IMG/VR virus record: IMGVR_UViG_3300017700_000784
Span: 1 to 64,000 of that record
Source of the DNA: a virus
Lineage: Duplodnaviria > Heunggongvirae > Uroviricota > Caudoviricetes
Direction: 5' to 3' (one strand)
Length of the DNA: 64,000 nt
This document shows positions 9,285 to 37,729 of the stretch, in pieces. Each line of letters starts with the position of its first letter. The first letter of the stretch is position 1. Made by a program: the position numbers and the translations under genes. The notes under the pieces are model-generated. The model was not told where the DNA came from. It made no database searches and saw nothing but the letters and a program-made list of their open reading frames with translations.

Positions 9285-9304
9285 AAGATTTTAGTTTTAA
9301 TCAG

Positions 9305-9943
9305 CTACTGGAGTATGAACTCTACAGCATCACTGATAGTTTTGTCATTTGTGTTTATAAGAAAAGACTTGATACCAAGCTTTCTTGGGCCGTCAACATC
9401 TGTTAAGATATTATCTCCTACATGTACAGAAGAAGTAGAATACATTCTAACATCAGGTTTAGCATAACCTACTTGATCACTGAAACAGTGAAAAGAAGCA
9501 TACTTTATGTCTGCATTAAAAAGTATTTTTTTTAAAGTTTCTCCTGTAATAAACATAGTATTTGAAGAAATCTTTATAGTTCTTCCAGCTTGTACTAAAT
9601 CTCTTAGTGCAGGAAGGGTTTCTTCAGAATATACAAGAGGAGGAATTTGAATAGCTAACTCTTGATATTGTTTATGAAATAAAGCTGCATGTAGCTTATT
9701 AAAATTATCATAAGTAATACCAAAGTTACTGAATAACATTCTTAGTATTTGTTCAGTAGTAGGTTGCCATCCAGTTTGTTCTATAACAGAGTTTAATGTA
9801 TTTTTTACAGAGTCAAAAGCATGATCTATGTAGGAGTCCCCTAAGTCTTTCTTAAAGAACTCTCTAACATAGTCATGTCTCATTTCTCTGAAATCTGGAT
9901 TACTCTTAATAAGGGTATTCCATAAGTCAAAGCTTACTAGCAT
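9305..9943 (-). CDS. HAD-superfamily hydrolase/phosphatase
   Basis: Motif I 'SFDLWNTLI' (DxDxT-like) and motif IV 'HVGDNILTDVDG'. The gene ends in TAG. Confidence 0.6.
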   Translation of the reverse strand: MLVSFDLWNTLIKSNPDFREMRHDYVREFFKKDLGDSYIDHAFDSVKNTLNSVIEQTGWQPTTEQILRMLFSNFGITYDNFNKLHAALFHKQYQELAIQIPPLVYSEETLPALRDLVQAGRTIKISSNTMFITGETLKKILFNADIKYASFHCFSDQVGYAKPDVRMYSTSSVHVGDNILTDVDGPRKLGIKSFLINTNDKTISDAVEFILQ

Positions 9944-9944
9944 G

Positions 9945-10523
9945 TTATATAACAGCTACAGCTTCAGGCACAATAGATGCTACAGTTCTACCATTACAAG
10001 GAGTACCTAAAGCATTCATTTTCCATCCACCATTGTGTCTGTAAAGTTTAGCCATGATTAATCCTGTGTTAGTAGTTCCTCTCTCATTGAGTTTATAGAT
10101 ACAAATTTCTTTGTTTTCTACACTATCAACAAGTCTAGCAAAGCAGTTTTTAACCTTATTAAAAGTTTGACCTTGATAAGAATTAACAACAAACACTAAG
10201 CTATCTACATTTGTAGGCACTGTAGTAAGATTTACATGAATTACTTCATCATCTCCATCACCAGCACCTGTAAGGTTGTCACCACTATGTCTGATGCTTC
10301 CATCACTAGAATGTAATTTTGAAAAACTAACAGTATCCACTACAGTTTTATTTACATCAAACATGATAACAGAAGCATCTAAATCGATACTTCCACCACC
10401 CATACCAAGAAATCCTCCTGATGAAGCATCCCAACCTAAACCCATAAAAACAGCAGTTAAAGCTCCACCATCAGCTTTCTTTAACTCTATTTTTTGTCCT
10501 TTTGTTAAGTTAATACTACTCAT
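9945..10523 (-). CDS. TerD-family stress protein (TerD/TerE/TerZ-like paralogue)
   Basis: 'INLTKGQKIELKK', 'MGLGWDA', 'DLDASVIMFD', 'HSGDNLTGAGDGDDEVIHVNL', 'LVFVVNSY' and 'KLYRHNGGWK' match the TerD-domain consensus. Confidence 0.9.
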   Translation of the reverse strand: MSSINLTKGQKIELKKADGGALTAVFMGLGWDASSGGFLGMGGGSIDLDASVIMFDVNKTVVDTVSFSKLHSSDGSIRHSGDNLTGAGDGDDEVIHVNLTTVPTNVDSLVFVVNSYQGQTFNKVKNCFARLVDSVENKEICIYKLNERGTTNTGLIMAKLYRHNGGWKMNALGTPCNGRTVASIVPEAVAVI

Positions 10524-10664
10524 TATAACTTACTTTTTACATACGCTACAATCTTAGCGCCCCATCCAAGGGTTGTTTCGGCACACATGCCTCCTAAAAA
10601 TACTAATGCAAATCCTATCATCTTTTCTATTTTTGAAAGGGTTAATAATCATTTAAAAAAGTAA

Positions 10665-10706
10665 TCCAAAAGGGGTAGTTAACTTGACCATCAACTAGCC
10701 CCTTAA
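10665..10706 (-). terminator. putative terminator between the two terD genes
   Basis: Imperfect hairpin AAGGGGTAGTT...AACTAgCCCCTT, with a U-tract downstream on the minus strand. Confidence 0.4.
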
Positions 10707-10738
10707 GAATTACCAGGTAACACAAAGAAAAATGTTTT

Positions 10739-11320
10739 TTAGTACTCAGCTACAAATTCAGCTAAGCCACCAGCTTTACCAGTACCAACTGCTTCAAACT
10801 TCCATTCACCATCTTTTTTGTATAATTTTCCGAAAAGTAAAGCAGTTTCCACGCTATAATCTTCATTCAAATCATACTTCATAAGCTCAGTGTTGGTAGC
10901 AGGATCAAATACTCTGATGTAAGCACCGCTTACTTGGCCAAAGTTTTGATTTCTTGCTGCAGCTTCATCAATAGTAACTACAAAGACAATAGCTTCAGCT
11001 TCAGCTTCAATTTTAGAAAAATCTACAACTAAACTTTCATCATCTCCATCTCCTTCTCCAGTTCTGTTGTCTCCTGTGTGCACTACTGCATCATTAGGAG
11101 ATTTCAAATTGTTGTAAAAAACGAAGTGAGCATCTGATAATCTCTTGTTAGCAGCATTAAGAATAACTGCAGATACATCTACATCAAACTGTGGTCCTAC
11201 ATTTGCATTAGGATTCCATCCTAAGCCTACCTGGTATTTAGAAACTCCAGGATTTGTTTTTGTTAGGTCAACTTTTTGACCTTTTGACAAGTTAATTGTC
11301 ACTACGGGTGTTGTACTCAT
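10739..11320 (-). CDS. terD: tellurium-resistance protein TerD
   Basis: Near-collinear with enterobacterial TerD: 'FVFYNNLKSPNDAVVHTGDNRTGEGDGDDESLVVDF', 'IVFVVTIDEAAARNQNFGQVSGAYIRV' and 'LLFGKLYKKDGEWKFEAVGTGKAGGLAEF'. Confidence 0.95.
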   Translation of the reverse strand: MSTTPVVTINLSKGQKVDLTKTNPGVSKYQVGLGWNPNANVGPQFDVDVSAVILNAANKRLSDAHFVFYNNLKSPNDAVVHTGDNRTGEGDGDDESLVVDFSKIEAEAEAIVFVVTIDEAAARNQNFGQVSGAYIRVFDPATNTELMKYDLNEDYSVETALLFGKLYKKDGEWKFEAVGTGKAGGLAEFVAEY

Positions 11321-11349
11321 GGTTATATAAAAATTAAATTTGTTTTTGT

Positions 11350-11570
11350 TTAACTACCTCCACAGCTACTTCCACAAGAGCTACCACAGCTTGAACTACT
11401 ACTACAGCTACTTGAAGATGAACTACTACAAGAGCTATGTGAAGAACTACAACTACTATGGCTACTACATGAAGAACTATGATCATTACTAGAACTGTGA
11501 TGTGAATCACTGGCCGGAGTAGAACCACATGAACTTGCAGAAAAACAGGAAGAAGAACTTGAATTATCTT
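11350..11570 (-). repeat. low-complexity (AGC/TGC-type) repeat encoding the Ser/Cys tail
   Basis: Reiterated 'agctactac / agaactac' units, which produce a homopolymer-like shadow ORF on the other frame (11334..11600). Confidence 0.6.
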
Positions 11571-12054
11571 TTTGAGAGACAGGTTCACTTGCAGATACAC
11601 TATCCATCATAAGTATAGGTATCCAGAACATCCAGTCATCACCAGAATTACTTCTGGAACTTGTGTATCCTGAAGACTTTATACTATGATGATACTGACC
11701 ATACATTCTTTTAGTAGAATTCCATGAAGCTTCATGCTTTTTAGGATTCTCTGTAGTGTTCGGGTCATGATGTATCACTCTTCCAAAAATATCCATACAG
11801 TCATCATAATATTTCCTTGTATCAAGGATGTGCTGATGCCAATAGTCATCTAACTCTTGACTCCAAGGGACTACACAAGCATAAGGATTACTAAATATCA
11901 TAAATAAGAACTGTCTATACTCTTTACAGATTTTGTCAGCTTCTTCTTTAGTCCAACCTTTTTTTTCTATTAAATTTTTAGTAACAGAAGAAAGGTCTAA
12001 CATATCTATTTTTTTAAAAGCTTTTTCAGCTTTAGATGTAAGCCACTCCCACAT
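11350..12054 (-). CDS. hypothetical protein with His-rich N-domain and an extreme Ser/Cys-rich C-terminal tail
   Basis: N-terminal part contains 'WHQHILD' and 'GRVIHHDPN'. C-terminal about 80 aa reads 'SSSSSCFSASSCGSTPASDSHHSSS...SSCSSSHSSCSSSSSSSCSSSSSCGSSCGSSCGGS'. Confidence 0.6.
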   Translation of the reverse strand: MWEWLTSKAEKAFKKIDMLDLSSVTKNLIEKKGWTKEEADKICKEYRQFLFMIFSNPYACVVPWSQELDDYWHQHILDTRKYYDDCMDIFGRVIHHDPNTTENPKKHEASWNSTKRMYGQYHHSIKSSGYTSSRSNSGDDWMFWIPILMMDSVSASEPVSQKDNSSSSSCFSASSCGSTPASDSHHSSSNDHSSSCSSHSSCSSSHSSCSSSSSSSCSSSSSCGSSCGSSCGGS

Positions 12055-12055
12055 A

Positions 12056-12772
12056 TTATTTCTTTTTAAAGATTATTGGAAACAAAAATACAGACATGGT
12101 TACTACTGAGAATACTAAATCTGTGTAGTGATTATTAAGCCATCCGTGTAGTTTATACTGTGGAAAGAAATCCATAATACCAGCTAAAAGCATTTTTAGT
12201 CCTAATAGAAGTATTACTATAAAAGCAGAACCTTCAAGAGTTGGATATTTCTGTAGTATCTGTGAAAAATATTGAGCCACAAATCTCATACCTAATATAC
12301 CTAAAAATACAGCAGCTACAACTACCCATATATTACTGGATAATGATACTACAGCAACTAAGTTATCAAGACTAAAAACTATATCCAGAAATTCTACCAT
12401 TACTACAGTAGTCCAGAATTTATTAAGATGAAAAAATCTACATATCTTCTGTAAAAATCCAGGCTCTTGTCCCTCTTCTACAGAATCAACTTCAGCAGTA
12501 GAGTGAGTATACCATAAATAACATAGGTAAGCACCTCCTAATATCTTAAACACTCCTCCTATAGAAGGATTATATAAAATATAAGAAACCAGTAATAGAG
12601 ATAACCCTCTAAAGAGATAAGCACCAAGTATACCATACTTAAGAGCTTTTTCTCTTTCTTTTTTGTCAGATAAGTTTCTGTTTACTATGACAGCAAGTAC
12701 TGAAGCATTATCAATGCTTAACACTATTTCTATCATAAGTATATTCAGAAACACTAGTAAGAAAGCTATCAT
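12056..12772 (-). CDS. terC: TerC-family integral membrane protein
   Basis: Polytopic membrane protein with the two hallmark TerC motifs 'VLSIDNASVLAVIV' and 'VFSLDNLVAVVSL'. Confidence 0.85.
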   Translation of the reverse strand: MIAFLLVFLNILMIEIVLSIDNASVLAVIVNRNLSDKKEREKALKYGILGAYLFRGLSLLLVSYILYNPSIGGVFKILGGAYLCYLWYTHSTAEVDSVEEGQEPGFLQKICRFFHLNKFWTTVVMVEFLDIVFSLDNLVAVVSLSSNIWVVVAAVFLGILGMRFVAQYFSQILQKYPTLEGSAFIVILLLGLKMLLAGIMDFFPQYKLHGWLNNHYTDLVFSVVTMSVFLFPIIFKKK

Positions 12773-13386
12773 TATTTTTTCAAGTTGTATTTACAACCAT
12801 TCACAATGATATACTCAATGGTTCTTGGATCAACTTGTCTGGTTCTGTTATCATAACTAGCAGAATTATCCTTAGTTACCTCCATATCAATGAAAGACAT
12901 TCTTTTGTGTTCATTGTAAGAACCATAGTGTCTTCCTTTCATTTCTCTAAAAGCTCCCGGAGTAGTTCTAGTGATAGGATTTTCAATAAGATTCTGAACC
13001 ATGATAGGTAATTCTGACATCTTAGCATTTACAAATGCTTGTTTAGCAGCCTCAACTTCAGACTTGTAATCTCTTACAAGTTTTTCTTTGTCTTTTTCAT
13101 AAAAACCAACAGCCATAGCAATTCTTGGATTACTGTCAAAAATCTCAATAAGTTCTGTTCTTGTTTTCACTTCTTCTCTGTCATAGTAATCTGCACTACT
13201 AAGGATTTTTTCAACATACTTGTTGCCAAGAGTAATGTTATCATTACCATGTTCATCAGAAACAACAATACTACCTGGTAATATTTTCTTTACAATGAAG
13301 AAAGATGATTCAGATAATATTGATCCTGCTTTTAATCCAGCCAATTTACTTGTTGCTTGTTTAGCAACTGTTGCACTTTTTCCCAT
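12772..13386 (-). CDS. hypothetical protein (inside the Ter-like cluster)
   Basis: 204-aa ORF with a 1-nt overlap with terC. Confidence 0.5.
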   Translation of the reverse strand: MGKSATVAKQATSKLAGLKAGSILSESSFFIVKKILPGSIVVSDEHGNDNITLGNKYVEKILSSADYYDREEVKTRTELIEIFDSNPRIAMAVGFYEKDKEKLVRDYKSEVEAAKQAFVNAKMSELPIMVQNLIENPITRTTPGAFREMKGRHYGSYNEHKRMSFIDMEVTKDNSASYDNRTRQVDPRTIEYIIVNGCKYNLKK

Positions 13387-13450
13387 GCTTTTTAGTTTTT
13401 AAAGTTTATGAATTATTTTTTTCTTTTTTAGCAATTTTTCCCAAGTCTTA

Positions 13451-14278
13451 TTACTTGATGTCTTTATAGAAACCTTTACTTACATCTTCTCCTGCAACAG
13501 CGCTGGTAAAATAAGCAGTTCTACTTCTTAAAGTCTCTCCAAGAACTTTTTTAAGGCCTTCTCCAGTACCATCATAAGATGCAGTATTACTAGCATGCAC
13601 TTTTGTTTTTCTTATGATAGAAGCAACATCTTGTTTGGTTCCAATAAAAGTAATAGTGAAATTTTTACTATTATACTCTTCTATTAGTTTACCTACAGAC
13701 TCAGAATTATACTTACGGGAAGCATTTTCTTCTCCATCTGTATAGATGTTTACTAAAACTTTACATGAAGTATCTTTAAGATAAGATTTCATTGCTGTAA
13801 GAGTCTGTCCTATAGCATCATATAATGCTGTGGTACCTCCGGCATGGCAAGCAATTTTTGATACACCTTTAACAGGTTTAGACAAATACTGTAAATCTAC
13901 ATTATGGTCAAATTGACAATAAGTGTGTGTATATACTACTTTGTCTTTTGAGTTTTGAAGCTCTTCTACTCCTTTATTAAGGAATTCTTTGGCATTTTGA
14001 ATTTTAGGTCCTGACATAGAACCAGAGCGATCTAAAATGTCTACAACATGAATAGTTGTGATTTTGTTTTTACTAGAAGACTTATCAGTCTTAGTACTCT
14101 TAGGTGGGGTTGTAGTTGTAGTAGCAGTTGCTTTTTTACCAGTTTTTAAAAAACTAATGTACTCAGCAGCAGTACTAAAACCCTCTTTTTGTGCTTTTTT
14201 CTCTCTTGAAACTTTGTTTCTTTGGATAAAAGACTTTAACAGATCAGAATTCGATTTTTTTGTGGCAGTTGCACTCAT
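13451..14278 (-). CDS. vWA-domain protein (TerY-like)
   Basis: MIDAS motif 'VVDILDRSGSMSG' ... 'GGTTALYDAI' ... 'YTDGEEN'. The N-terminal about 70 aa is Lys/Thr-rich and looks disordered. Confidence 0.8.
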   Translation of the reverse strand: MSATATKKSNSDLLKSFIQRNKVSREKKAQKEGFSTAAEYISFLKTGKKATATTTTTPPKSTKTDKSSSKNKITTIHVVDILDRSGSMSGPKIQNAKEFLNKGVEELQNSKDKVVYTHTYCQFDHNVDLQYLSKPVKGVSKIACHAGGTTALYDAIGQTLTAMKSYLKDTSCKVLVNIYTDGEENASRKYNSESVGKLIEEYNSKNFTITFIGTKQDVASIIRKTKVHASNTASYDGTGEGLKKVLGETLRSRTAYFTSAVAGEDVSKGFYKDIK

Positions 14279-17649: not shown

Positions 17650-19278
17650 TTATTCTTCTTCACCTTTGGCAACATTAAACATACCTTCAGTGGTATATCC
17701 AGTAATATTACCGCAATTATCAATCATAATTTGTTTTCCACCACTGTTTACACAGAGGTTTTTAAGCTCATCACTAAATTCCATTAATGATATAGCATTT
17801 ACTTTGTAAGGAAAAGCATCATATCCTACACTATCCTGACCATCATTTATGATGAGTATCTCAGGTTTCACTTTAGATAAGTCTGTTTTCAAATTACAAA
17901 GGCTGCCTCTTTTAATCTCATCAGAAATATGAGTTACAATTCTTCCCATATCAGTTAAAGAACCATTAGGGGAATTACTGAAATTCTTCCAGAAAGATTT
18001 TACATCAGCAGCACACTTAAGATGAGTAAATTTAAGATGTTCAGGATTACTTACAAAGTAGCTGAAATAAATCTCAGCATTACCTCTGATAACATGTCTG
18101 AACCTATCCATAAGAATAGAGTTAACCCACACTTGTTTAGTAGGGTCATGCATACTTCCTGAATAGTCACAGATAATAATAATAGTCTGTTTCTTTTCAG
18201 TCTTAGAAATAGGGACATTTACCACAAGTTCTTTAGTAAGAAGCTTAAGGCCATAATAAGGAAGAAGTCTTTGATAGATATCTATTTTAGTTATCTGATC
18301 ATAGCTACGCATGATTTGCTTTTTAACATGAATAGAGTTTTCCACTTCTTTTTCACCAGTTTCAAGTTCAACCTTAAAATGACTACCCATGTCTCCCATT
18401 ATGGAAATATTCTGCATGATAGTATCTAAAGATTTTCTACTGTAAGCACAATGGTCAAATTGTCCCATAAGAGACTCATCACCATAATCCTCACGCTTAA
18501 AACTAATGTTTCTGTGTATATCCTTCTTACCAACTCTTTTGGCCATCTGCTCACGAGCTTCAGCATCTCTAACCCTATGATAAACAGCAAGAGCTTGTTC
18601 AAGAGGAGAAAAACCTGGAATATAGGTATTATATATGTCATCAAAGATTTTTTTCTTTTTTTCATATGTAGAACCACCTTCATTGTTTTTCATTCTCTTA
18701 GACATATAATCCTTGTCATCTATCATTTTAAGATAACATACTCTACATATCTCTTGAACAAGTTCAACAGATTCGTTAGTATATACATTAATCTTACCTT
18801 TAATTTCAAATTCTGTAGGAGTAATATAATTATCAGGATTTTTTACATACAGCTCACCAACAGTACCGCTGTCATACCAAGTACTCCAGTTATAACTAGA
18901 CCATCTGGTAGCACTCCATGCAAACTCTTTCTTTTCAGGAACATAATATTCATCATCATCTTCATTTCTGTAATTTTCACTATAAATACTATGACCTGCT
19001 GTTAAAGTGCTTCTTCTAGTGTCCATGACACTGATTCCTCTTTTCTTTTGAATTCTTTCAAGACGCTTTCTTTCCTTCTCTTCTCTTCTTTGCTGTCTTC
19101 TATCAAACTTACTTACATATTTGTCAGTGTTTGGAGTAGAAGAACTATCAGCAGCCTTGGTAACTGTGTAGGAACCATACTTAGTGTATACTATTGTGGT
19201 TACACGTCCAGGAGTAGGTTCTACAGGTTTTTTTAATGCTAATGGAGACCACAACTTTCCGCCTTTTTCCCATGGCAT
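17650..19278 (-). CDS. vWA-domain protein, CobT-like (C-terminal vWA)
   Basis: MIDAS motif 'QTIIIICDYSGSMHD' ... 'SLTDMG' ... 'ILIINDGQDSV'. Lies immediately downstream of an AAA+ ATPase. Confidence 0.7.
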   Translation of the reverse strand: MPWEKGGKLWSPLALKKPVEPTPGRVTTIVYTKYGSYTVTKAADSSSTPNTDKYVSKFDRRQQRREEKERKRLERIQKKRGISVMDTRRSTLTAGHSIYSENYRNEDDDEYYVPEKKEFAWSATRWSSYNWSTWYDSGTVGELYVKNPDNYITPTEFEIKGKINVYTNESVELVQEICRVCYLKMIDDKDYMSKRMKNNEGGSTYEKKKKIFDDIYNTYIPGFSPLEQALAVYHRVRDAEAREQMAKRVGKKDIHRNISFKREDYGDESLMGQFDHCAYSRKSLDTIMQNISIMGDMGSHFKVELETGEKEVENSIHVKKQIMRSYDQITKIDIYQRLLPYYGLKLLTKELVVNVPISKTEKKQTIIIICDYSGSMHDPTKQVWVNSILMDRFRHVIRGNAEIYFSYFVSNPEHLKFTHLKCAADVKSFWKNFSNSPNGSLTDMGRIVTHISDEIKRGSLCNLKTDLSKVKPEILIINDGQDSVGYDAFPYKVNAISLMEFSDELKNLCVNSGGKQIMIDNCGNITGYTTEGMFNVAKGEEE

Positions 19279-19281
19279 AGT

Positions 19282-20487
19282 TTAGAAAGGATTATCATCA
19301 TCAGTAGTAGATACCTCACACTGACCAGTAGATTCTCTCTTAACCCACTGACCTTCAGCATCTTTAACATATCCAGCTTTCTTTTTACTCATGAATTTTC
19401 CATCAGGTCCTTTTATAATAGGATTAAGCTCGGCTTCATACTGAAGTTTTATAGCTTGATGATTACGGATTTCACCATCTATCTTACGCACCATATCAGT
19501 ATGTAAAGATATCAAGCTGTCATCAACACTCATCTTACTAAGAGTTTTAAACTTAGCATTAAGTTCACTGTATTTCTCAATGAAAAGCTCCTTTTCTTCT
19601 CTTGTAGAAGGATTAGCATTAGCAAGATATTCAAGATACTCTGCAAGTTCAGCACCACTTTGTTTAAACTTAATAGTTGCCTCAAACTTTTTAAGAGCTT
19701 CAGCTATAAGCTGTGGCTTTTTATTCAAGTCAGCTATAAGCTTAAGTGAGTCTGGTCCACAAGTTTCATACACAGCATAAGTATCAATAGCAATTCTAGG
19801 AGAAATGTTGATATTAGCTTTAGCATATTCTTGTAGCATGAAAGGAATAATTGGATCTACTTGGCCTACACCAAATCTTTGCTCCAAAAGTTTATTATAA
19901 CTCTCTTCTGTGTAATTATCCCAAATCACAAGAAGTTCAAGTGGAAATCTTTCCATAACTGCTTTAAGTGAGTCATTTTTAGCAAACTCTTCACGAGTTT
20001 TGTTTGTACATGCTATAATAAACTTGGTTTTGATTGGAAATACTTGTGAGCCATTTCTAAACATTCTTGAAGAAAGTACATCTTTAAGATTTTCAAGTAT
20101 GAAATCTGGTGAATCCATCATCTCTTCCAAGATAACATATTCATGGTTAAACATACTGTTTTCTATAAGATACTCTATTTTACCATCTCCTAATGATACA
20201 ATATCAATACCTCCAAACAGTCTATCTGTAGTCATACCTGAACCCATAGTAAGAACATATGGATTAATACCTTTTTCATACAAATACTCTAAGGCAAATT
20301 CTGATTTTCCATGACCACCTGGACCAAAGAGAACCACATTTCTGCCTGTTTTCATACCTGCATCAAGTGCTAACAGCACTTTATCCATAAAGACAAAATT
20401 ACTTAGGATACTCTGTTTAGGTATATTCTTTACTTTTCGAGAAGCTTTTGGTTTTTTAGCTTCTACTTCTTCTTTTATCGCTGTCAT
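19282..20487 (-). CDS. AAA+ ATPase, CobS/MoxR-like
   Basis: Walker A 'VVLFGPGGHGKSEFA' and Walker B-like 'EYVILEEMMD'. Adjacent to the vWA partner. Confidence 0.7.
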   Translation of the reverse strand: MTAIKEEVEAKKPKASRKVKNIPKQSILSNFVFMDKVLLALDAGMKTGRNVVLFGPGGHGKSEFALEYLYEKGINPYVLTMGSGMTTDRLFGGIDIVSLGDGKIEYLIENSMFNHEYVILEEMMDSPDFILENLKDVLSSRMFRNGSQVFPIKTKFIIACTNKTREEFAKNDSLKAVMERFPLELLVIWDNYTEESYNKLLEQRFGVGQVDPIIPFMLQEYAKANINISPRIAIDTYAVYETCGPDSLKLIADLNKKPQLIAEALKKFEATIKFKQSGAELAEYLEYLANANPSTREEKELFIEKYSELNAKFKTLSKMSVDDSLISLHTDMVRKIDGEIRNHQAIKLQYEAELNPIIKGPDGKFMSKKKAGYVKDAEGQWVKRESTGQCEVSTTDDDNPF

Positions 20488-21787: not shown

Positions 21788-22132
21788 CTATATCACTATA
21801 GAATTTCTATCAGGGTTTAGATATTTATTAGAATAATAATGTCTAACATTATCACCTATAGACAACCATTCAAGATTTATGTAATTATTATTAAGTTTAT
21901 TACCATCTATATGATTTACAGTTTCAAGATTATAAGGATTTACTACATAATATTTAGCCACTAATCTATGTATTTTTACCTTAGTAACTATAGCATTAGT
22001 AGAAATATTACAATAATAATATCCTCTTTGATTAACATTTTGTTTAAGAATTCTACCATAGATATTTTTAAACCTTCCTAAATTTGAAATAAAGTATTTA
22101 GGGTTCTCTTTTAATTGTTTCCATTGTTCCAT
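21788..22132 (-). CDS. HNH homing endonuclease (NUMOD4 + HNH_3)
   Basis: 'MEQWKQLKENPKYFISNLGRFKN' (NUMOD4), 'HRLVAKYYV' and 'NPYNLETVNHIDGNKLNNNYINLEWLSIGDNVRHY' (HNH). The track ORF is 21788..22213 (TTG/upstream start); the internal Met was preferred. Confidence 0.8.
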   Translation of the reverse strand: MEQWKQLKENPKYFISNLGRFKNIYGRILKQNVNQRGYYYCNISTNAIVTKVKIHRLVAKYYVVNPYNLETVNHIDGNKLNNNYINLEWLSIGDNVRHYYSNKYLNPDRNSIVI

Positions 22133-22265
22133 AGAACAAAGATAACAAAAATTAGGGTACAATATAAAACTATACCCTAATATTTTTGCTCCAAGACTTT
22201 CACTTGGCTTCATGTATTACTACATAGGTGTTGCATCTTTCAGTCCCACACTCTTGACACTCTCT

Positions 22266-22550
22266 TTACTCTGCTACCAAGTCAGCTTTATATGTTTCCA
22301 TAAACTTCTCTACAAGTTCCTTATCCCAACCTGTTCGGGTTGGAAGTTGAGGTTCTTTTCCTCTAAGCTGAGCATATGCTATAAACAAGTGCATAAGCTT
22401 AGTAGAATTACTAGTACGAAGTGCTGCTGCTTCATTAGCAGGCATAGACCTTTCAACTTTCAAGTGAACCGTTTTACATTGGGCTTTTAGTGTACCCTGT
22501 TGACTTGATAGTGCTTTAATGTCTGTTATAATCTTGTGAAATCTTCTCAT
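22266..22550 (-). CDS. hypothetical protein
   Basis: 94-aa ORF. Confidence 0.45.
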   Translation of the reverse strand: MRRFHKIITDIKALSSQQGTLKAQCKTVHLKVERSMPANEAAALRTSNSTKLMHLFIAYAQLRGKEPQLPTRTGWDKELVEKFMETYKADLVAE

Positions 22551-22819
22551 GATAATGTTAATTTAAAATTTTTAAATAGTTTTTTGTGAGTTTCCTCTGG
22601 TAGGCATTCAACAGTGATAGCTGTCATCTCATTACCTATATCAGGTTCAAAGAATACAGTATACTTAATACCTAAATCTTTAAGTTTGGTTACTAGCATC
22701 TCCATCTTGAATTTAGATGTTTCTAAACAACAGAGATAGTTTGATACTTTTTCCCATTCAAGGAATTCAGGACCATGCCTTGCTGAAAACTCAGCCATTC
22801 CATGAGCAGATTGTGCCAC
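22547..22819 (-). CDS. hypothetical protein
   Basis: 90-aa ORF with a 4-nt overlap. Confidence 0.45.
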   Translation of the reverse strand: MAQSAHGMAEFSARHGPEFLEWEKVSNYLCCLETSKFKMEMLVTKLKDLGIKYTVFFEPDIGNEMTAITVECLPEETHKKLFKNFKLTLS

Positions 22820-22913
22820 CTTATATCCAGGCGCTAAATCTTCTCTGACAACAATAGTGACAAAATCACCCTTTTTAATCTACTTCTTCATGATATAAAA
22901 ATTTAAAGGTTAG

Positions 22914-22986
22914 TCCTATCTGTGGGACTTGAACCCACGACCATTGGTTTTAGGGACCACAGCTCTACCAACTGAGCTAAGACAGG
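22914..22986 (-). tRNA. tRNA with predicted anticodon CUA (amber-reading, suppressor-like); identity undetermined
   Basis: Manual fold of the minus strand CCTGTCT-TA-GCTC-AGTTGGTA-GAGC-T-GTGGT-CCCTAAA-ACCAA-TGGTC-GTGGG-TTCAAGT-CCCAC-AGATAGG-A. Acceptor stem 7 bp (one G.U). D-stem 4 bp with G18G19. T-stem 5 bp with T-loop TTCAAGT. Variable loop 5 nt. Anticodon loop CCCTAAA gives anticodon 34-36 = CTA, with an unusual C33 and a 27:43 G.A mismatch. No encoded CCA. Confidence 0.65.
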
Positions 22987-23208
22987 ATAAGAAGTATCTG
23001 GCTTTTCAATGTTTAGATTTTACACTTAGACAATTCTATTACACCAGATTTACTGGGTTTATACTCCCTTACTTCTAATCATTAAGAGTGATACTACTTT
23101 TGTTATCCTTTTGATTTCAGGTTCTGCAGGTAATCAGCTTAAAAGCTTGCTACATTATTGCACTCTATCTCTCCCTTACTAGGTTGCCTTCGTACCACTC
23201 CTATATTA

Positions 23209-23427
23209 TTATTCTTCTTTGAGAAACATCTGTGTTAATCTAAGTTTAGCCTTATCTGTCACACCTTCAAAGGATATTTTCTCTTCAAACTGTTCCTGTA
23301 GTATAGAAAGAGTTTTAGTTGTAGTATGGATAACTAATTTGCCAGTAATAATCTGATATTTTAAACATTTGTATGGTTCTTTATTAAAAATAAAGTAACT
23401 TCCTATTAGTCTGTCAAATTGTGCCAT
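23209..23427 (-). CDS. hypothetical protein
   Basis: 72-aa ORF. Confidence 0.4.
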   Translation of the reverse strand: MAQFDRLIGSYFIFNKEPYKCLKYQIITGKLVIHTTTKTLSILQEQFEEKISFEGVTDKAKLRLTQMFLKEE

Positions 23428-24803: not shown

Positions 24804-25757
24804 TTATTTAGGATTAAGTATTACTGAAGTATCTCTTCCTAACTGAGTACTAGGTACTCTTGGTACATCAGGATTTACATCTACCCATTTAAGATACTCT
24901 ATGTATAAAGGAGTAAGCTCTTGTTTTCTAAGCTTCATAGCTTTAGCACTAGCACTTGCTGTAATAACTACTCTAGCAGAATCTCCTCTGGCAACAGCAA
25001 TCTTTTGCTCTTTTTCTGCATCAGCTGCTTTAGCTTTTGCCATCCATTTCTGTGCATCATATTCTGCAGCAGCTTTATCTGCTATAGATTTAGCAATAGA
25101 ACTTGGAGGTGGCATATTAGTTCTTAGTTGTGATACTTTAAACCATTTACCTACTCTTTTATTAGCTTCAAGCTGTATAGCTATTTCAAATTCAGTTTTT
25201 TTATTAAAAATGTCTTCTACCTTCCATGAATTAGTAACGTCATTTACAGCGCCTAATATAGCTATTTCAAGCCATCCTTGTTCTATGGTTTCAAGACCAT
25301 TACCTGATCTGAATGCAGTTCTTAGATTAGTAAACATTTCTGCTGTAGTACCTGTTTTTACAGAGTAGTTAAATGAAGGAAATATCTTTAAAGCAAATCC
25401 TCCTTTAGCAACACTAGGTTGTTCTCCATATCTAATACTTCTTTGATCAAGTGGTATCTGATGTATTTCCTCTGTCCAAGTGTTGTATACTTTCCAACCA
25501 GAAATTTCTTTTATAGAGCTTGCACCACGGCTATCACCTATAAGATTTACAAGTAATCCTTGATAACCAGCTTCAATTTTCTTTAAAGCATAAGGTTGTA
25601 TAAATATTACTACAAGACATACTATACCAATAGCTATAGCTTTATAGTTTAAAACAGTATCAGCTCCAGTTCTTCTTACAATAATGTGAAGCTTGTTTTG
25701 TAAAATCAGTCCTCCAAATATGAGGATAAAAATAACGAGTAAAATAGATGTTAACAT
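24804..25757 (-). CDS. SPFH/band-7 (stomatin/HflC-like) membrane protein
   Basis: N-terminal transmembrane helix, 'QGLLVNLIGDSRG' and a C-terminal Ala/Glu-rich coiled coil 'AAEYDAQKWMAKAKAADAEKEQKIAVARGDSARV'. Confidence 0.7.
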   Translation of the reverse strand: MLTSILLVIFILIFGGLILQNKLHIIVRRTGADTVLNYKAIAIGIVCLVVIFIQPYALKKIEAGYQGLLVNLIGDSRGASSIKEISGWKVYNTWTEEIHQIPLDQRSIRYGEQPSVAKGGFALKIFPSFNYSVKTGTTAEMFTNLRTAFRSGNGLETIEQGWLEIAILGAVNDVTNSWKVEDIFNKKTEFEIAIQLEANKRVGKWFKVSQLRTNMPPPSSIAKSIADKAAAEYDAQKWMAKAKAADAEKEQKIAVARGDSARVVITASASAKAMKLRKQELTPLYIEYLKWVDVNPDVPRVPSTQLGRDTSVILNPK

Positions 25758-31573: not shown

Positions 31574-32527
31574 CTATTGTTTGTCTTCTTCTGCCTCTCC
31601 GCCTGCTAAGTTAGCTGTAGCATTAGTTGTGTCTGCCTCTTCCTCTTCTTCTACAAGAGAGTTGTTGATACGAGCCACACGTTGAGACTGAAGATATTCT
31701 TTAGTTTCCTTGTTGTCTTTATCATGCTCAATGAAGATATCAGCATATTTATCTGCCTCTTCAACATTGTCGCAAAATAGTTGACAAGTAAGGATATACT
31801 CTCCTGCTTTAGTCTTAAGGCAAGGAGCATTTCTGTTTGGTCTTTTCAACTTACCATTTATCTCTTTGCTACCAAACAGAACATCACTAATAGCACTTGC
31901 TATGCTAGCTTGTGTTGCGTTGTCAAGAGTCAAGATTAAACTTGGGTTAAACAAACCTGTTTTGCTATCCATAAGCTTAAGCAAGAGCTTGTCATTAACA
32001 AGTCTTACTGCTCTTCTGATAACTATCTCGAAGTTGTATCTGAATACTTCGCTTTGCTGATAGCGAGCTAAAGTTTCCATACAAGCTTTAAGGAACTTGT
32101 CATGTCCATTGCGAACATACTTATTGATGCTCAAGGCAAACTCTTGCACAATGATTTTACAACCTTTGATTTGAATTCTCACATCATTATCAATGAGGTC
32201 ATCAAACCACTCTTGTGGGTTGCCAACAGGTGTGCCTACCGCGTCTGTGTCTAACAACTCTGTGATGTAATCATACACTTCAGATTTGTCAAGAGTTGGT
32301 AAGTCAACAGCTACACGTCTAGTCTTAGTAACAGGACGCTTGGTGATGGCATTCATCTTGCGCTCTTTATGTACTAAGAATATTCTTGTAACACCCTCTT
32401 CAACTTGTCTGTTTAAAGTTGTGTCGAAGAAACTGTTGTTAACATAAGATTGACACAAAACTCTCTCTTGTGTATCTCTGTTGAGTTGCGGAGCAATAAA
32501 TACTTTTTGTTGCACTGAATTTTTCAT
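31574..32527 (-). CDS. hypothetical protein, compositionally atypical (higher GC), acidic C-terminus
   Basis: 317-aa ORF, visibly GC-richer than its neighbours (e.g. 'ctgcctctccgcctgctaag...'). Ends 'EEEEEADTTNATANLAGGEAEEDKQ'. Confidence 0.55.
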   Translation of the reverse strand: MKNSVQQKVFIAPQLNRDTQERVLCQSYVNNSFFDTTLNRQVEEGVTRIFLVHKERKMNAITKRPVTKTRRVAVDLPTLDKSEVYDYITELLDTDAVGTPVGNPQEWFDDLIDNDVRIQIKGCKIIVQEFALSINKYVRNGHDKFLKACMETLARYQQSEVFRYNFEIVIRRAVRLVNDKLLLKLMDSKTGLFNPSLILTLDNATQASIASAISDVLFGSKEINGKLKRPNRNAPCLKTKAGEYILTCQLFCDNVEEADKYADIFIEHDKDNKETKEYLQSQRVARINNSLVEEEEEADTTNATANLAGGEAEEDKQ

Positions 32528-35210: not shown

Positions 35211-35281
35211 CGCTGGGTGGTGTAAAGGTAACACGTAGGGTTCATGTCCCTAAGCTTTGGGTTCGACTCCCAACCCCGCTA
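35211..35281 (+). tRNA. tRNA-Met (CAU), initiator-like
   Basis: CGCTGGG-TG-GTGT-AAAGGTA-ACAC-G-TAGGG-TTCATGT-CCCTA-AGCT-TTGGG-TTCGACT-CCCAA-CCCCGCT-A. Anticodon loop gives CAT. The anticodon stem has three consecutive G-C pairs, and there is a 1:72 mismatch (C1/T72). The acceptor ends CGC.GGG/CCCCGC, as in bacterial tRNA-fMet. Confidence 0.8.
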
Positions 35282-35300
35282 CAAAGACTAAAGAAAAGAA

Positions 35301-35696
35301 ATGGAAGTTAAGAAAGTAAATAGAAAACTTAGAATGAGTATTGTTGATATAATCAGGTATCAAATTCTTACAGAAGTAATGTTCTTTAAGAAAGAGTACC
35401 TGATTCAATCAGATTTAGAGATACTTACTTTATTGGTTATGTGGGGTCCTATGGAATTAGGTCCCTTCTGTTCTGATGCAGCAAAGATATTGTATCCTGA
35501 ATCAAAGCCTCAGGATTTATCAACAAGAGCACAGAATGTAAGAAACAGAATAGTGAAACTGGAAAAAAGAAATATAATCAGTAAAACCTCAACAGGTAGA
35601 AAGACTATAGTACTTAATCCTGATATTGAGATATATTCTAAAGGTAACATATTGTTGGATTTTAATTATTTAGGAATTGAATCCACTCAAACGTAA
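35301..35696 (+). CDS. hypothetical protein
   Basis: 131-aa ORF. Confidence 0.45.
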   Translation: MEVKKVNRKLRMSIVDIIRYQILTEVMFFKKEYLIQSDLEILTLLVMWGPMELGPFCSDAAKILYPESKPQDLSTRAQNVRNRIVKLEKRNIISKTSTGRKTIVLNPDIEIYSKGNILLDFNYLGIESTQT

Positions 35697-36099
35697 ATCT
35701 CTGGTAGAGAAAACTGCACAAGACTTGAACTTGCCAACTGAGGCTGTTGATGATCTTGTGTTGTTCTTTTATCAGGAACTGCAAAAGAAGATGTCACAGT
35801 GTTTTTTCCATTCACTGTGGGTTCCCAATCTGGGAACTTTTGTAATTAAGAAGAAGTCACTATCTGATATGATTGACAAGCATACTAATTTTATAGCGAG
35901 ACTTGAAAGAGATGAGGCTATATCAGTAAGGATGTATGAGGCTATACTCACATCAAAGAAGCAAATAGATATTCTTACTGATATGAAGAATATAATGACA
36001 GTAGAAGAAGATAAAAAAAATAACATAAGACAAAAAAGAAAAGAATATATCAATGGCAAACTTAATCAAGATTTGGAAGGAGAGAGGGAGGATTCTTGA
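35677..36099 (+). CDS. hypothetical protein
   Basis: 140-aa ORF. Confidence 0.45.
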   Translation: MNPLKRKSLVEKTAQDLNLPTEAVDDLVLFFYQELQKKMSQCFFHSLWVPNLGTFVIKKKSLSDMIDKHTNFIARLERDEAISVRMYEAILTSKKQIDILTDMKNIMTVEEDKKNNIRQKRKEYINGKLNQDLEGEREDS

Positions 36100-36361
36100 A
36101 GGTATCAAGAATAATATCTTTAGAAAGCAGCATGTTGAAATCATTGCTGCAACAAGACAAACTATCTGTGACTCATGTGAGTTTTTAGATACTGAAGGCA
36201 CTAAATGTGCTATGGCAGGTACTCAACCCTGTTGTGCAGAATGTGGATGTAGCCTTGCTTTTAAGACAAGAAGTTTATCATCAGCATGCCCTAAGAACTT
36301 CTGGAAAGCAGAACTTACTCCAGAAGAAGAAGCAGAATTAAATAAAAAAATAAGAAAATAA
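36053..36361 (+). CDS. Cys-rich hypothetical protein
   Basis: 'CDSCEFLDTEGTKCAMAGTQPCCAECGCSLAF...SSACP'. Confidence 0.4.
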   Translation: MANLIKIWKERGRILEGIKNNIFRKQHVEIIAATRQTICDSCEFLDTEGTKCAMAGTQPCCAECGCSLAFKTRSLSSACPKNFWKAELTPEEEAELNKKIRK

Positions 36362-37211: not shown

Positions 37212-37729
37212 TGATAAGACTATTTGATATTAACAACGGGGTTGTAGTACCTACTGAACATTGTTACACCTTAAAAGACTTAGCTGTAGTTATGGATGCA
37301 TATCCTGAGGATTTTGCAAATGTATATGCTTATCTTTTTTATATGACATGTCCTAATCCAGATCTCAATCCTTTTTTTGAAGTTCCTGAACATGAGAAAG
37401 AAGAACTTATATTTTCGCAGCTTCCTGTCAATTTTAGCACTGAAGATGATATTGTCCTCAAAGCTAGAGCACTTTGTGAAAGACTCTATCAGACTGCTAC
37501 TTTTAGGGCTTATATGGGTATCAAGAGTATGCTTGACAGGCTCGCTAAATATATGGAGACTACTGAGATTCAGCACGGGAGAGATGGTAACATTAACTCT
37601 CTTGTTAATGCTGCAGCAAAGTTTGAACAAATTAGACTTTCCTTCAAAGGAGCGTACAAAGACCTTATGGAAGAACAAAAATCACAAGTAAGAGGTAATG
37701 CACAAATAGCATATGACCAAGAGAAATAA
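37211..37729 (+). CDS. hypothetical protein
   Basis: 172-aa ORF. Confidence 0.45.
   Translation: MIRLFDINNGVVVPTEHCYTLKDLAVVMDAYPEDFANVYAYLFYMTCPNPDLNPFFEVPEHEKEELIFSQLPVNFSTEDDIVLKARALCERLYQTATFRAYMGIKSMLDRLAKYMETTEIQHGRDGNINSLVNAAAKFEQIRLSFKGAYKDLMEEQKSQVRGNAQIAYDQEK

What the first reader, a model, noticed from the sequence alone, without database searches (positions are those of the whole stretch)
22914..22986. Phage tRNA with anticodon CUA (amber-suppressor-like)
A textbook cloverleaf (7/4/5/5-bp stems, G18G19, T-loop TTCAAGT, 5-nt variable loop) whose anticodon loop CCCTAAA places CUA at positions 34-36. That would decode UAG. The loop is atypical (C33 instead of U33, and a G27.A43 mismatch), so the gene may be a recent anticodon mutant of a Gln/Trp/Lys/Glu-type tRNA. 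This genome still terminates some genes with TAG: the PRTase at 8496, the HAD at 9305, the HNH gene at 21788 and the SPFH-like gene at 38271 (where TAG is followed two codons later by TAA). The tRNA would therefore cause programmed read-through or extension, or help the phage in a TAG-recoded host. The TAG-terminated genes are concentrated in accessory functions, including two genes of the Ter cluster.
Basis: seen in the sequence. Interest (0 to 1): 0.68.

Follow-up and report, generated by a model that had tools for sequence, protein, structure and literature searches.

The report
Suppressor tRNA paired with stop-interrupted hydrolase
A phage tRNA that reads the UAG stop codon lies 22 bases upstream of a peptidyl-tRNA-hydrolase-like gene with an in-frame UAG at its fourth codon; the same tRNA-gene pair, with anticodon and stop codon changing together, recurs in dozens of otherwise different phages, so it looks like a dedicated read-through switch and not a stray mutant tRNA.

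Summary
The tRNA is real. It lies on the minus strand at 22914-22986 (ARAGORN; Rfam 61 bits), with loop CCCUAAA, anticodon CUA, C33 and G27.A43. Twenty-two nt downstream starts ATG AAG AAG TAG ATT..., a PTH2-type peptidyl-tRNA-hydrolase homologue (AlphaFold pLDDT 92; best PDB matches all PTH2). Its first beta-strand lies between the TAG and the first canonical start, so a complete protein requires UAG read-through.

Of 45 distinct homologues from viral, metagenome and genome collections, 35 carry a stop 1-9 codons after an ATG. Twenty-nine pair TAG with a tRNA-CUA in the same locus, two pair TAA with tRNA-UUA, one has TGA on a cut contig, and none is mismatched. The base after the stop is always a purine. 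The ORFs are under purifying selection (dN/dS 0.10-0.37) and the tRNAs covary (19 of 21 pairs).

The 64-kb window otherwise uses the standard code. Its seven TAG-terminated genes would gain only 0-38 residues.

The tRNA body is phage tRNA-Trp-like. C33 occurs only here among 39 suppressors, so activity in this phage is unproven. I found no description of this cassette in the literature I could search.

The parts
22914..22986 (-). tRNA gene with anticodon CUA (loop CCCUAAA, C33, A37), A73, no encoded CCA. The body resembles phage tRNA-Trp.
   Evidence: ARAGORN; Rfam RF00005 at 61.1 bits; 87.9% identity over positions 8-65 to Cellulophaga phage phi4:1 tRNA-Trp.
22892..22913 (-). 22-nt spacer (C TAACCTTTAAATTTTTATATC) between the tRNA 3' end and the ATG. 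It is nearly identical in close relatives even though their tRNA bodies differ.
   Evidence: Alignment A4 of window, L099, L100, L107, L104 and L102.
22889..22891 (-). ATG that opens the 3-codon leader (Met-Lys-Lys) of the hydrolase ORF.
   Evidence: An ATG lies 1-9 codons upstream of the stop in 35 of 45 distinct homologues. In LR756501 it is preceded by AAGGAG at 9 nt.
22880..22882 (-). In-frame TAG (codon 4), followed by ATT. This is the proposed decoding target of the tRNA.
   Evidence: The equivalent stop is present in relatives, and its type matches the neighbouring tRNA's anticodon.
22547..22891 (-). PTH2-like (peptidyl-tRNA hydrolase 2 fold) ORF: M-K-K-[TAG]-IKKGDFVTIVVREDLAPGYKVAQSAHG...KLTLS, ending in TGA at 22547-22549. 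The first canonical start after the TAG is GTG at 22819-22817, which lies after beta-strand 1.
   Evidence: With the post-TAG residues included, Pfam PF01981 scores 22.4 bits over profile positions 4-114 and PHROG 1866 scores 51 bits; the GTG-started ORF scores 15.2 and 20.5 bits. AlphaFold pLDDT is 92.2, with beta-strand 1 at residues 5-12. The top 12 Foldseek PDB hits are all PTH2. dN/dS is 0.15-0.32 against relatives.
22266..22550 (-). 94-aa three-helix ORF of unknown function. It overlaps the hydrolase stop (ATGA) and is inherited with the cassette.
   Evidence: Syntenic 93-95-aa ORFs in L099, L100, L102, L104, L154 and L161. Homologues share 63-74% identity. AlphaFold pLDDT is 80 and there is no PDB match.

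Best explanation
The tRNA(CUA) and the gene directly downstream form one cassette. The tRNA is a nonsense suppressor whose dedicated client is the in-frame UAG at codon 4 of the adjacent PTH2-type hydrolase gene.

Proposed mechanism. The two genes, and the overlapping 94-aa ORF, share a strand and are probably one transcript. The tRNA is cut out, given CCA, charged by a host synthetase (amino acid unknown), and competes with release factor 1 at AUG-AAG-AAG-UAG-A. If RF1 wins, only a tripeptide is made. If the tRNA wins, the full 114-residue hydrolase is made. Hydrolase output is therefore tied to, and limited by, the amount of working suppressor tRNA.

Shown by sequence and comparison:
- the tRNA;
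- the in-frame stop and the absence of any other usable start;
- the PTH2 fold;
- conservation of the arrangement;
- the match between stop type and anticodon;
- purifying selection on the ORF.

Inferred:
- co-transcription;
- actual suppression;
- what the coupling is for.

My preferred purpose is this. A PTH2-type enzyme recycles peptidyl- or N-blocked aminoacyl-tRNAs that build up when termination is disturbed or tRNAs are attacked. Gating it by read-through makes it appear only when the suppressor is active, and in proportion to it. This is comparable in logic to the in-frame UGA that lets prfB sense RF2.

In this particular phage, C33 may weaken the tRNA.
For: 1. Real tRNA with CUA at positions 34-36.

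2. The downstream ORF reads MKK-TAG-IKKGDFVTIVV... There is no ATG, GTG or TTG between the TAG and beta-strand 1.

3. Including the post-TAG residues raises PTH2 from 15.2 to 22.4 bits and PHROG 1866 from 20.5 to 51 bits.

4. PTH2 fold: pLDDT 92, TM 0.72-0.76 to 1q7s, 2zv3, 1rlk, 3erj and 1xty. Of 32 family members, 28 hit PF01981.

5. The same layout occurs in phages whose other genes and gene order differ: L099, L100, L102, L104, L107, L109-L118, L149, L154, L161, and the published genomes LR756500, LR756501 and LR756504.

6. Of 45 distinct N-termini, 35 have the leader stop. The pairs are 29 TAG with tRNA-CUA, 2 independent TAA with tRNA-UUA (L104 at 79% identity, L112 at 52%), 1 TGA on a cut contig, and 0 mismatched. 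Fisher p = 0.002.

7. The base after the stop is a purine in 35 of 35, against a background of 0.67 (p about 8e-7, not corrected for relatedness). From memory of the older suppression literature, which I did not check here, a 3' purine is the context that favours suppression.

8. dN/dS is 0.10-0.37, and exactly 110 codons follow the stop in all seven compared ORFs.

9. Across 23 cassette suppressor tRNAs, 96% of cells are paired and 19 of 21 pairs show compensatory changes. No shuffle out of 500 reaches this.

10. The window otherwise uses the standard code, and no other ORF needs TAG read-through.
Against: - C33 replaces the almost universal U33, and is found only here among 39 distinct suppressors from these loci. 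It may reduce or abolish decoding in this phage.
- No expression, charging or suppression data exist.
- The inserted amino acid is unknown. The 'Q' and 'W' in database homologues are artefacts of alternative-code gene calling.
- Three TAG cassettes have no suppressor tRNA within the 5-6 kb fetched (L125, L137, L150).
- Seven cassettes have a possible canonical start after the stop. In cluster C mycobacteriophages the annotated GTG start directly follows the TAG and has the better-placed Shine-Dalgarno sequence.
- tRNA-CUA genes also accompany PTH2-like genes that lack any leader stop (L128, L140-L147). XacN1 has CUA tRNAs and a PTH2 with no leader stop. Gating therefore cannot be the whole story.
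- Only 64 kb of a genome of about 136 kb was inspected.
- The relatedness of the sampled cassettes inflates the simple statistics.
Confidence: 0.68

Rival explanations
1. General suppressor on the way to genome recoding. The tRNA serves TAG codons in genes outside this window, or is a pre-adaptation to code 15 as in the model of Borges et al. On this view the TAG in the hydrolase gene is just one recoded codon among others.
For: The phage has a crAss-like capsid protein, low G+C (0.33) and few TAG stops (7 of 97). These match the profile described for standard-code relatives of recoded phages, some of which carry suppressor tRNAs. About half of the roughly 136-kb genome was not seen.
Against: The terminase, portal, capsid and other structural genes in the window have no in-frame TAG. 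The stop sits at one fixed position in one gene family across 30-100% identity, and switches to TAA together with the anticodon. Neighbourhoods of the cassette in other phages are dense in the standard code.
Confidence: 0.15
2. In this phage the tRNA is disabled by C33. The cassette is a decaying copy and the hydrolase is not made, or is made only as a truncated GTG-started product.
For: C33 is unique among 39 suppressors. U33 is nearly invariant in elongator tRNAs and forms the U-turn (general knowledge, not checked here). The acceptor stem and A73 lack the elements known for TrpRS or GlnRS in E. coli (from memory).
Against: All stems pair and every conserved tertiary nucleotide is intact, giving 61 bits. 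The acceptor stem has been completely rewritten relative to tRNA-Trp relatives yet still pairs. The hydrolase ORF is intact, with dN/dS 0.15-0.32 against relatives. The identical sequence occurs in a second assembly. As far as I recall, published U33 substitutions reduce decoding but do not abolish it; I did not check this.
Confidence: 0.15
3. The leader is a regulatory mini-ORF (Met-Lys-Lys-stop), and the hydrolase is translated by re-initiation at the next codon (AUU). The tRNA would then be unrelated to it, for example a decoy or spare part against host tRNA-targeting defences.
For: The codon after the stop is ATT or ATA, both near-cognate starts, in 19 of 35 cassettes, and GTG in 3. Two- and three-codon minigenes are known to interact with Pth in lambda bar (from memory). 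Phage tRNAs are known to counter anticodon nucleases.
Against: The codon after the stop is GTT, GTA, ACA, AGT or AAC, none of which is start-like, in 13 of 35 cassettes. Re-initiation would not require the stop type to match the neighbour's anticodon, yet there are 31 matches and 0 mismatches. It would also not explain why the neighbour is a suppressor tRNA in particular.
Confidence: 0.07

Closest known systems
Suppressor tRNAs of stop-codon-recoded phages (code 15 TAG->Gln, code 4 TGA->Trp; crAss-like, Lak, Agate, Jade phages)
   Same: A phage-encoded tRNA with a stop-codon anticodon, in a low-G+C crAss-related phage that seldom uses TAG as a stop. In-frame stops make expression depend on the tRNA.
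   Different: Here the genome uses the standard code. In 64 kb the read-through requirement is confined to one small gene next to the tRNA, at a fixed N-terminal position. There is also a TAA/UUA version, and the cited survey reports only TAG->Gln and TGA->Trp reassignment in phages whose code differs from their host's.
E. coli su+7 (tRNA-Trp with CCA->CUA, charged largely with Gln; from memory)
   Same: A Trp-type tRNA body with U35 in place of C35. The anticodon stem GUGGU/ACCAA and loop context C32...A37 A38 match phage tRNA-Trp genes.
   Different: A73 replaces G73, the acceptor stem is unrelated (C1-G72), and position 33 is C. It is a natural, conserved genomic arrangement and not a laboratory mutant.
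pylT / tRNA-Pyl with in-frame UAG client genes
   Same: A dedicated CUA tRNA encoded near genes that carry an in-frame UAG, in a genome that is otherwise standard-code. ARAGORN prints 'tRNA-Pyl'.
   Different: This tRNA has a canonical D loop with G18G19, a T loop of UUCAAGU and a 5-nt variable loop. From memory, tRNA-Pyl lacks these features. I did not look for pylS.
prfB (RF2) autoregulatory in-frame UGA (from memory)
   Same: An early in-frame stop in a gene for a translation-termination or recycling factor, so that the gene's output reports the balance between termination and an alternative decoding event.
   Different: prfB escapes by +1 frameshifting and senses its own product. Here escape would be by a dedicated suppressor tRNA, and no feedback has been shown.
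PTH2 (archaeal/eukaryotic-type peptidyl-tRNA hydrolase, PF01981; 'peptidyl tRNA hydrolase' of cluster C mycobacteriophages)
   Same: The fold and family signature match. The phage homologues are annotated as peptidyl-tRNA hydrolase and lie among tRNA genes.
   Different: This is a distinct phage subfamily (SNYLCCLE and EPDIGN motifs) that typically carries a leader stop. Its activity and substrate are untested.

Membership tests
tRNA (Rfam RF00005), elongator type | Cloverleaf with 7/4/5/5-bp stems and the conserved U8, A14, G18G19, G53-T54-T55-C56, A58 and C61 | tested here: met
   61.1 bits against a gathering score of 29, full-length match; also called by ARAGORN.
tRNA (Rfam RF00005), elongator type | U33 preceding the anticodon (U-turn) | tested here: not met
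   Position 33 is C. The other 38 of 39 distinct suppressor tRNAs from related loci have U33.
Nonsense (amber) suppressor tRNA | Anticodon CUA at positions 34-36 of a 7-nt loop | tested here: met
   Loop CCCUAAA closed by U31-A39.
Nonsense (amber) suppressor tRNA | A gene in the same genome that needs in-frame UAG decoding | tested here: met
   TAG at codon 4 of the adjacent PTH2-like ORF. No alternative start precedes beta-strand 1. The stop type covaries with the anticodon in relatives.
Nonsense (amber) suppressor tRNA | Aminoacylation and read-through activity in vivo | not testable with these tools
   This needs a reporter assay, acid-gel or tRNA sequencing, and proteomics.
tRNA-Pyl (pylT) | Atypical tRNA architecture: short D loop without G18G19, 3-nt variable loop, no T-psi-C consensus (from memory) | tested here: not met
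   The D and T loops are canonical and the variable loop is 5 nt. The ARAGORN label only reflects the anticodon.
tRNA-Trp lineage (su+7-like derivative) | Body similarity to tRNA-Trp(CCA) genes | tested here: met
   87.9% identity over positions 8-65 to phi4:1 tRNA-Trp. Eight of nine IMG/VR hits to an anticodon-blind body pattern are tRNA-Trp. The G27.A43 mismatch is shared.
tRNA-Trp lineage (su+7-like derivative) | G73 discriminator and CCA anticodon (TrpRS identity, from memory) | tested here: not met
   A73, C1-G72 and anticodon CUA here; the Trp homologues have G73.
PTH2 peptidyl-tRNA hydrolase (PF01981) | Sequence match above Pfam's gathering score | tested here: inconclusive
   The window protein scores 22.4-22.6 bits against a cut-off of 23. 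Of 32 close homologues, 28 match at E <= 0.01, the best at 1.3e-8, and several carry a precomputed PF01981 hit.
PTH2 peptidyl-tRNA hydrolase (PF01981) | PTH2 alpha/beta fold | tested here: met
   pLDDT 92.2 and pTM 0.86. The top 12 Foldseek PDB hits are all PTH2 proteins, with probability 1.0 and TM 0.61-0.76.
PTH2 peptidyl-tRNA hydrolase (PF01981) | Hydrolysis of peptidyl- or N-acyl-aminoacyl-tRNA | not testable with these tools
   This needs an enzyme assay or complementation of pth(ts).
Stop-codon-recoded (code 15) phage genome | Many genes, typically late genes, interrupted by in-frame TAG; clear gain in coding density when TAG is read as sense | tested here: not met
   Coding density is 0.86 in the standard code and 0.89 with TAG read through. 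The structural genes are intact in the standard code, and 7 genes end in TAG. Only 64 kb of about 136 kb was examined.
Theta (minimal HDV-like) ribozyme attached to phage tRNA-Sup | Self-cleaving ribozyme immediately 3' of the tRNA | tested here: inconclusive
   No ribozyme family matched in 22400-23300 even at E <= 10. I do not know whether the library holds a theta model. The spacer to the ATG is only 22 nt.

The most novel reading that the evidence does not exclude
A widespread, mobile three-part phage cassette (nonsense-suppressor tRNA, PTH2-type hydrolase with a matching leader stop, small helical protein) acts as a self-contained translational circuit in standard-code phages. The hydrolase is produced only through its own suppressor tRNA. 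In turn it services the tRNA pool when termination or tRNAs are perturbed, for example by clearing peptidyl- or N-acetyl-aminoacyl-tRNAs made by host defence toxins or by read-through itself. This would give one answer to why phages that are not recoded carry suppressor tRNAs. It would also provide natural, portable suppressor/target pairs for all three stop codons.
Probability: 0.35. Interest if true: 0.9.

Novelty: new variant of a known kind. Interest (0 to 1): 0.8.

Why it matters
Phage suppressor tRNAs are usually explained by genome-wide stop-codon recoding. In standard-code phages their targets have been an open question. The XacN1 paper, for example, states that no target genes could be identified.

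Here a concrete client gene lies beside the tRNA. Anticodon and stop codon covary, and the pattern extends across many phage lineages, including published huge-phage genomes. This has several consequences:

- The function of such tRNAs becomes directly testable with a leader-reporter plus or minus the tRNA.
- It points to a link between suppression and peptidyl-tRNA recycling.
- It exposes a systematic annotation error. These genes are called truncated (83-96 aa), or are translated with Q or W at the stop.
- It offers natural amber, ochre and possibly opal suppressor/target pairs for engineering.

Tried and rejected
- **Orthologues of the tRNA itself.** The exact D-arm-to-T-arm pattern is absent from IMG/VR. 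An anticodon-blind body pattern found only tRNA-Trp genes and one tRNA-Thr. A CUA-specific pattern in JGI metagenomes found one unrelated tRNA-cluster phage, L097.
- **Synteny through neighbouring proteins.** The proteins at 17650-19278, 19282-20487 and 31574-32527 had no relatives in IMG/VR by the peptide-pattern method. The SPFH gene recovered only phi4:1-like phages that share nothing else with the window.
- **Capsid relatives.** More than 600 exist, but their 10-kb flanks stop short of the tRNA locus.
- **Programmed extension of TAG-terminated genes.** Rejected: the extensions are 0-38 residues and lead nowhere.
- **Gln at the stop position, inferred from homologues starting 'MKQI...'.** Rejected: the DNA of P0001, P0011 and P0034 has TAG, and P0012 has TGA where 'W' is printed.
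- **XacN1 as a further example.** Its PTH2 (ORF295) has a plain ATG start and no leader stop.
- **Cluster C mycobacteriophages (Bxz1, Myrna).** A start codon plus TAG precedes the annotated GTG, and a tRNA-CUA lies close by, but the Shine-Dalgarno spacing favours the GTG. I left this as ambiguous.
- **Function of the 94-aa ORF.** No Pfam or PHROG hit and no fold match.
- **Ribozyme or other RNA family around the tRNA.** None found.
- **Promoters and terminators around the cassette.** Nothing above the shuffled expectation.
- **Literature on C33 in suppressor tRNAs.** Nothing usable found.

Full report
**1. The observation**

The reported tRNA is real.
- ARAGORN finds it on the minus strand at 22913-22986 with anticodon cta.
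- Rfam's tRNA model matches 22914-22986 end to end at 61.1 bits, against a gathering score of 29.
- That alignment shows a 7-bp acceptor stem, a 4-bp D stem, an anticodon stem GUGGU/ACCAA with G27.A43 unpaired, the loop CCCUAAA (C32 C33 C34 U35 A36 A37 A38), a 5-nt variable loop, a 5-bp T stem, T loop UUCAAGU, G18G19 and discriminator A73.
- The window holds one other tRNA, tRNA-Met(CAU), at 35211-35282.

**2. The genome around it**

- The window has G+C of 0.33. Genes run on the minus strand up to about 33.3 kb and on the plus strand afterwards.
- It encodes a terminase (38712-40919), a portal protein (40919-43642) and a crAss-like major capsid protein (45043-46689).
- It has no close relative among deposited phage genomes. 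More than 600 IMG/VR contigs carry a capsid protein at 76-93% identity.
- The standard code already places 59 kb of the 64 kb in ORFs of at least 100 aa.
- A crude gene call gives 79 TAA, 11 TGA and 7 TAG stops.
- Reading through the seven TAG stops would add only 0 to 38 residues and reaches no further ORF. I see no sign of programmed C-terminal extension or of genome-wide recoding in this window.

**3.

The next gene downstream on the same strand had been called as an 83-90-aa ORF with no family. Translating the frame upstream gives ...IMKK*IKKGDFVTIVVREDLAPGYKVAQSAHG....

In DNA this is ATG (22891-22889) AAG AAG TAG (22882-22880) ATT AAA AAG GGT GAT... The ATG lies 22 nt after the tRNA's 3' end.

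The residues between the TAG and the first canonical start (GTG at 22819) belong to the domain:
- Adding them raises the Pfam PTH2 score from 15.2 bits (profile positions 20-114) to 22.4 bits (4-114 of 115).
- They raise the PHROG 1866 score from 20.5 to 51 bits.

An AlphaFold model built on 32 homologues has pLDDT 92.2. It places beta-strand 1 at residues 5-12 (DFVTIVVR), upstream of the GTG. The twelve best PDB matches are all PTH2-type peptidyl-tRNA hydrolases: human Bit1 (1q7s), MJ0051, TA0108, AF2095 and the S. solfataricus Pth2.

A complete protein therefore needs translation to start at the ATG and pass the TAG. A scan of all called ORFs for an upstream in-frame TAG preceded by an ATG found no other convincing case in the window.

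**4. Is this an accident of one genome?**

It is not. A protein search found 53 homologues. Many are annotated as truncated proteins of 83-96 aa. I fetched the DNA behind them.

- **Close relatives with TAG.** L099 (an NCBI contig of 111,589 bp), L100, L101 and L107 all have a tRNA-CUA, a nearly identical spacer, and then ATG AAG TAG ATT AAA AG... L102 and L103 have ATG ACG TAG ATT.
- **A TAA version.** In L104-L106 the neighbouring tRNA has anticodon UUA and the leader reads ATG AGA AAG TAA GTT.
- **Wider searches.** A profile of the family recovered 40 more loci from IMG/VR and 5 from genome contigs.
- **Further cases.** L112 is a second TAA leader next to a tRNA-UUA. L160 has a TGA leader, but its contig ends 56 nt upstream, so the tRNA cannot be seen.
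- **Published genomes.** The huge-phage genomes LR756500, LR756504 and LR756501 carry the TAG leader. In LR756501 the ATG follows AAGGAG at a 9-nt spacing, which supports it as the start.

Counting distinct sequences:

| Class | Number |
|---|---|
| Distinct N-termini examined | 45 |
| With a stop 1-9 codons after an ATG | 35 |
| Of those, with no canonical start before beta-strand 1 | 28 |
| TAG leader with tRNA-CUA in the same locus | 29 |
| TAA leader with tRNA-UUA | 2 |
| TAG leader with no suppressor tRNA in the 5-6 kb fetched | 3 |
| TGA leader, contig cut | 1 |
| Stop type and anticodon mismatched | 0 |

- Fisher's exact test on the matched pairs gives p = 0.002. The two TAA cases sit in different parts of the family, at 79% and 52% identity to the window protein.
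- The base after the stop is a purine in 35 of 35 cassettes. Purines make up 0.67 of first codon positions in this window, giving p of about 8e-7 without correction for relatedness. From memory of the older suppression literature, which I did not check, this is the context that favours suppression.
- The codon before the stop is AAG or AAA in 18 of 35.

**5. Signs that both partners are functional**

- The seven closest hydrolase ORFs all keep exactly 110 codons after the stop.
- Pairwise dN/dS is 0.10-0.37, and 0.15-0.32 for pairs that include the window.
- Across 23 suppressor tRNAs from these cassettes, 96.3% of cells form standard pairs and 19 of 21 pairs show changes on both sides. No shuffle out of 500, and no slid register, comes close.
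- The tRNA bodies differ much more between close relatives than the protein does.
- At the nucleotide level, the cassette (window 22274-22988) is the only segment shared with L102. In L104 it is one of only two shared segments. It sits in a different gene order in L099 and L100. It therefore behaves as a mobile unit.
- A 93-95-aa ORF that overlaps the hydrolase stop travels with it. It is predicted to be three helices and has no recognisable relatives of known function.

**6. Origin and peculiarities of this tRNA**

- Its D arm, anticodon stem (G27.A43 included) and variable loop match phage tRNA-Trp(CCA) genes. Identity is 87.9% over positions 8-65 to Cellulophaga phage phi4:1 tRNA-Trp. Eight of nine IMG/VR hits to an anticodon-blind pattern are tRNA-Trp.
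- Compared with their loop CUCCAAA, this one reads CCCUAAA: C35->U makes the amber anticodon, and U33->C is extra.
- The acceptor stem is unrelated to the Trp genes, and the discriminator is A73 where they have G73.
- I cannot predict the amino acid. The Q and W printed at the stop position in database homologues come from alternative-code gene calling; the DNA has TAG or TGA. No family member with a sense codon at that position was found.
- C33 is unique among 39 distinct suppressors from these loci. It is present in an assembly identical to the window.
- I could not establish whether C33 is tolerated, adaptive or disabling.

**7. Mechanism proposed**

The suppressor tRNA decodes the leader stop of its neighbour, so hydrolase synthesis depends on the tRNA and is limited by it.

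- *Shown:* anatomy, conservation, covariation and selection.
- *Inferred:* co-transcription, charging by a host enzyme, competition with release factor, and the purpose of the coupling.

tRNA-CUA genes also lie within 6 kb of PTH2-like genes that have no leader stop (L128, L140-L147). I therefore think the enzyme's job is itself connected to suppressor or tRNA biology: recycling peptidyl- or N-blocked aminoacyl-tRNAs when termination is perturbed or tRNAs are attacked. The leader stop would then be a gate that ties its dose to suppressor activity. In logic this resembles the early in-frame UGA of prfB.

The rivals are listed separately with their evidence: general pre-recoding suppressor, dead C33 tRNA, and mini-ORF with re-initiation.

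**8. Comparison with the known, and novelty**

- Phage suppressor tRNAs and stop-codon recoding are well described.
- For standard-code phages, targets have not been identified. This is stated explicitly for XacN1, whose own PTH2 turned out to have no leader stop.
- Searches combining peptidyl-tRNA hydrolase or PTH2 with suppressor tRNA, in-frame stop, stop-codon reassignment or huge phages returned nothing that describes this cassette. The searchable library excludes most subscription journals, so prior description cannot be ruled out.
- I class the finding as a new variant of a known kind: single-gene, tRNA-linked read-through in place of genome-wide recoding.

**9. Limits**

- Only 64 kb of a genome of about 136 kb was read.
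- The sampled cassettes are related, so the simple p-values overstate independence.
- Three TAG cassettes lack a visible suppressor in the short flanks.
- Seven have a possible alternative start.
- The mycobacteriophage cases are ambiguous.
- Nothing here demonstrates expression or suppression.

Noticed in passing
L005-L008 (about 9.4 kb upstream of the capsid gene); equivalent place in the window is 35283-36300: Close relatives (capsid protein 91-93% identical) carry a phage tmRNA gene (tag ANAQ(V/I)EANMNKVFSL...AA). In L007 and L008 it lies about 200 nt after their tRNA-Met. The window has the tRNA-Met but no detectable tmRNA; an ORF at 35301-35696 with no family match sits there.
   Followed up: partly
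window 35211-35282 (+): The tRNA-Met(CAU) has three consecutive G-C pairs closing the anticodon stem and a mismatch at positions 1-72. These are hallmarks of an initiator tRNA. This may be relevant if the PTH2-type enzyme does not spare fMet-tRNA.
   Followed up: no
window 21788-22213 (-): A NUMOD4 + HNH_3 homing-endonuclease gene, itself TAG-terminated, lies directly downstream of the cassette. It is absent from that position in L099 and L100, which suggests a recent insertion beside the mobile cassette.
   Followed up: partly
P0001, P0011, P0012, P0034 and their contigs L107, L161, L160, L154-L159: Public protein entries for this family print Q (or W) where the DNA has TAG (or TGA), because the gene caller switched genetic code. 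Other entries are truncated to 83-96 aa. The family is therefore systematically mis-annotated.
   Followed up: yes
L153 (Bxz1, NC_004687.1 94750-95510) and L166 (Myrna, NC_011273.1 33030-33593): In cluster C mycobacteriophages the annotated peptidyl-tRNA hydrolase gene starts at a GTG that directly follows ATG-TAG (Bxz1) or GTG-TAG (Myrna). A tRNA-CUA lies about 130-300 nt downstream. It is annotated as a 'tRNA-like product' in Bxz1 and as tRNA-Ser in Myrna.
   Followed up: partly
window 8496-14278 and 19282-20487 (-): An accessory block contains PRTase_3, a HAD-like gene, TerC, a VWA-domain protein and a bpMoxR AAA ATPase. There are also two SPFH/Band_7 genes (24804-25757 and 37729-38271). 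The first SPFH gene is 72% identical to genes in phi4:1-like 145-kb phages that share nothing else with the window.
   Followed up: no
L100 9660-9720 and L107 about 430-500: A fragment that looks like the 3' part of a tRNA (GGTTCGAATCCTTCCCTTACCACA) lies upstream of the cassette tRNA. This hints at turnover or replacement of tRNA genes at this site.
   Followed up: no
L097 5502-5574: Another Trp-like-bodied tRNA-CUA (U33, A73) sits inside a 15-tRNA cluster of an unrelated metagenomic phage. No PTH2-like gene was looked for there.
   Followed up: no
L157 278-351: One low-coverage contig (coverage 0.56) of the P0034 cassette has anticodon AUA where five sister contigs have CUA. This is probably a read error.
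   Followed up: no
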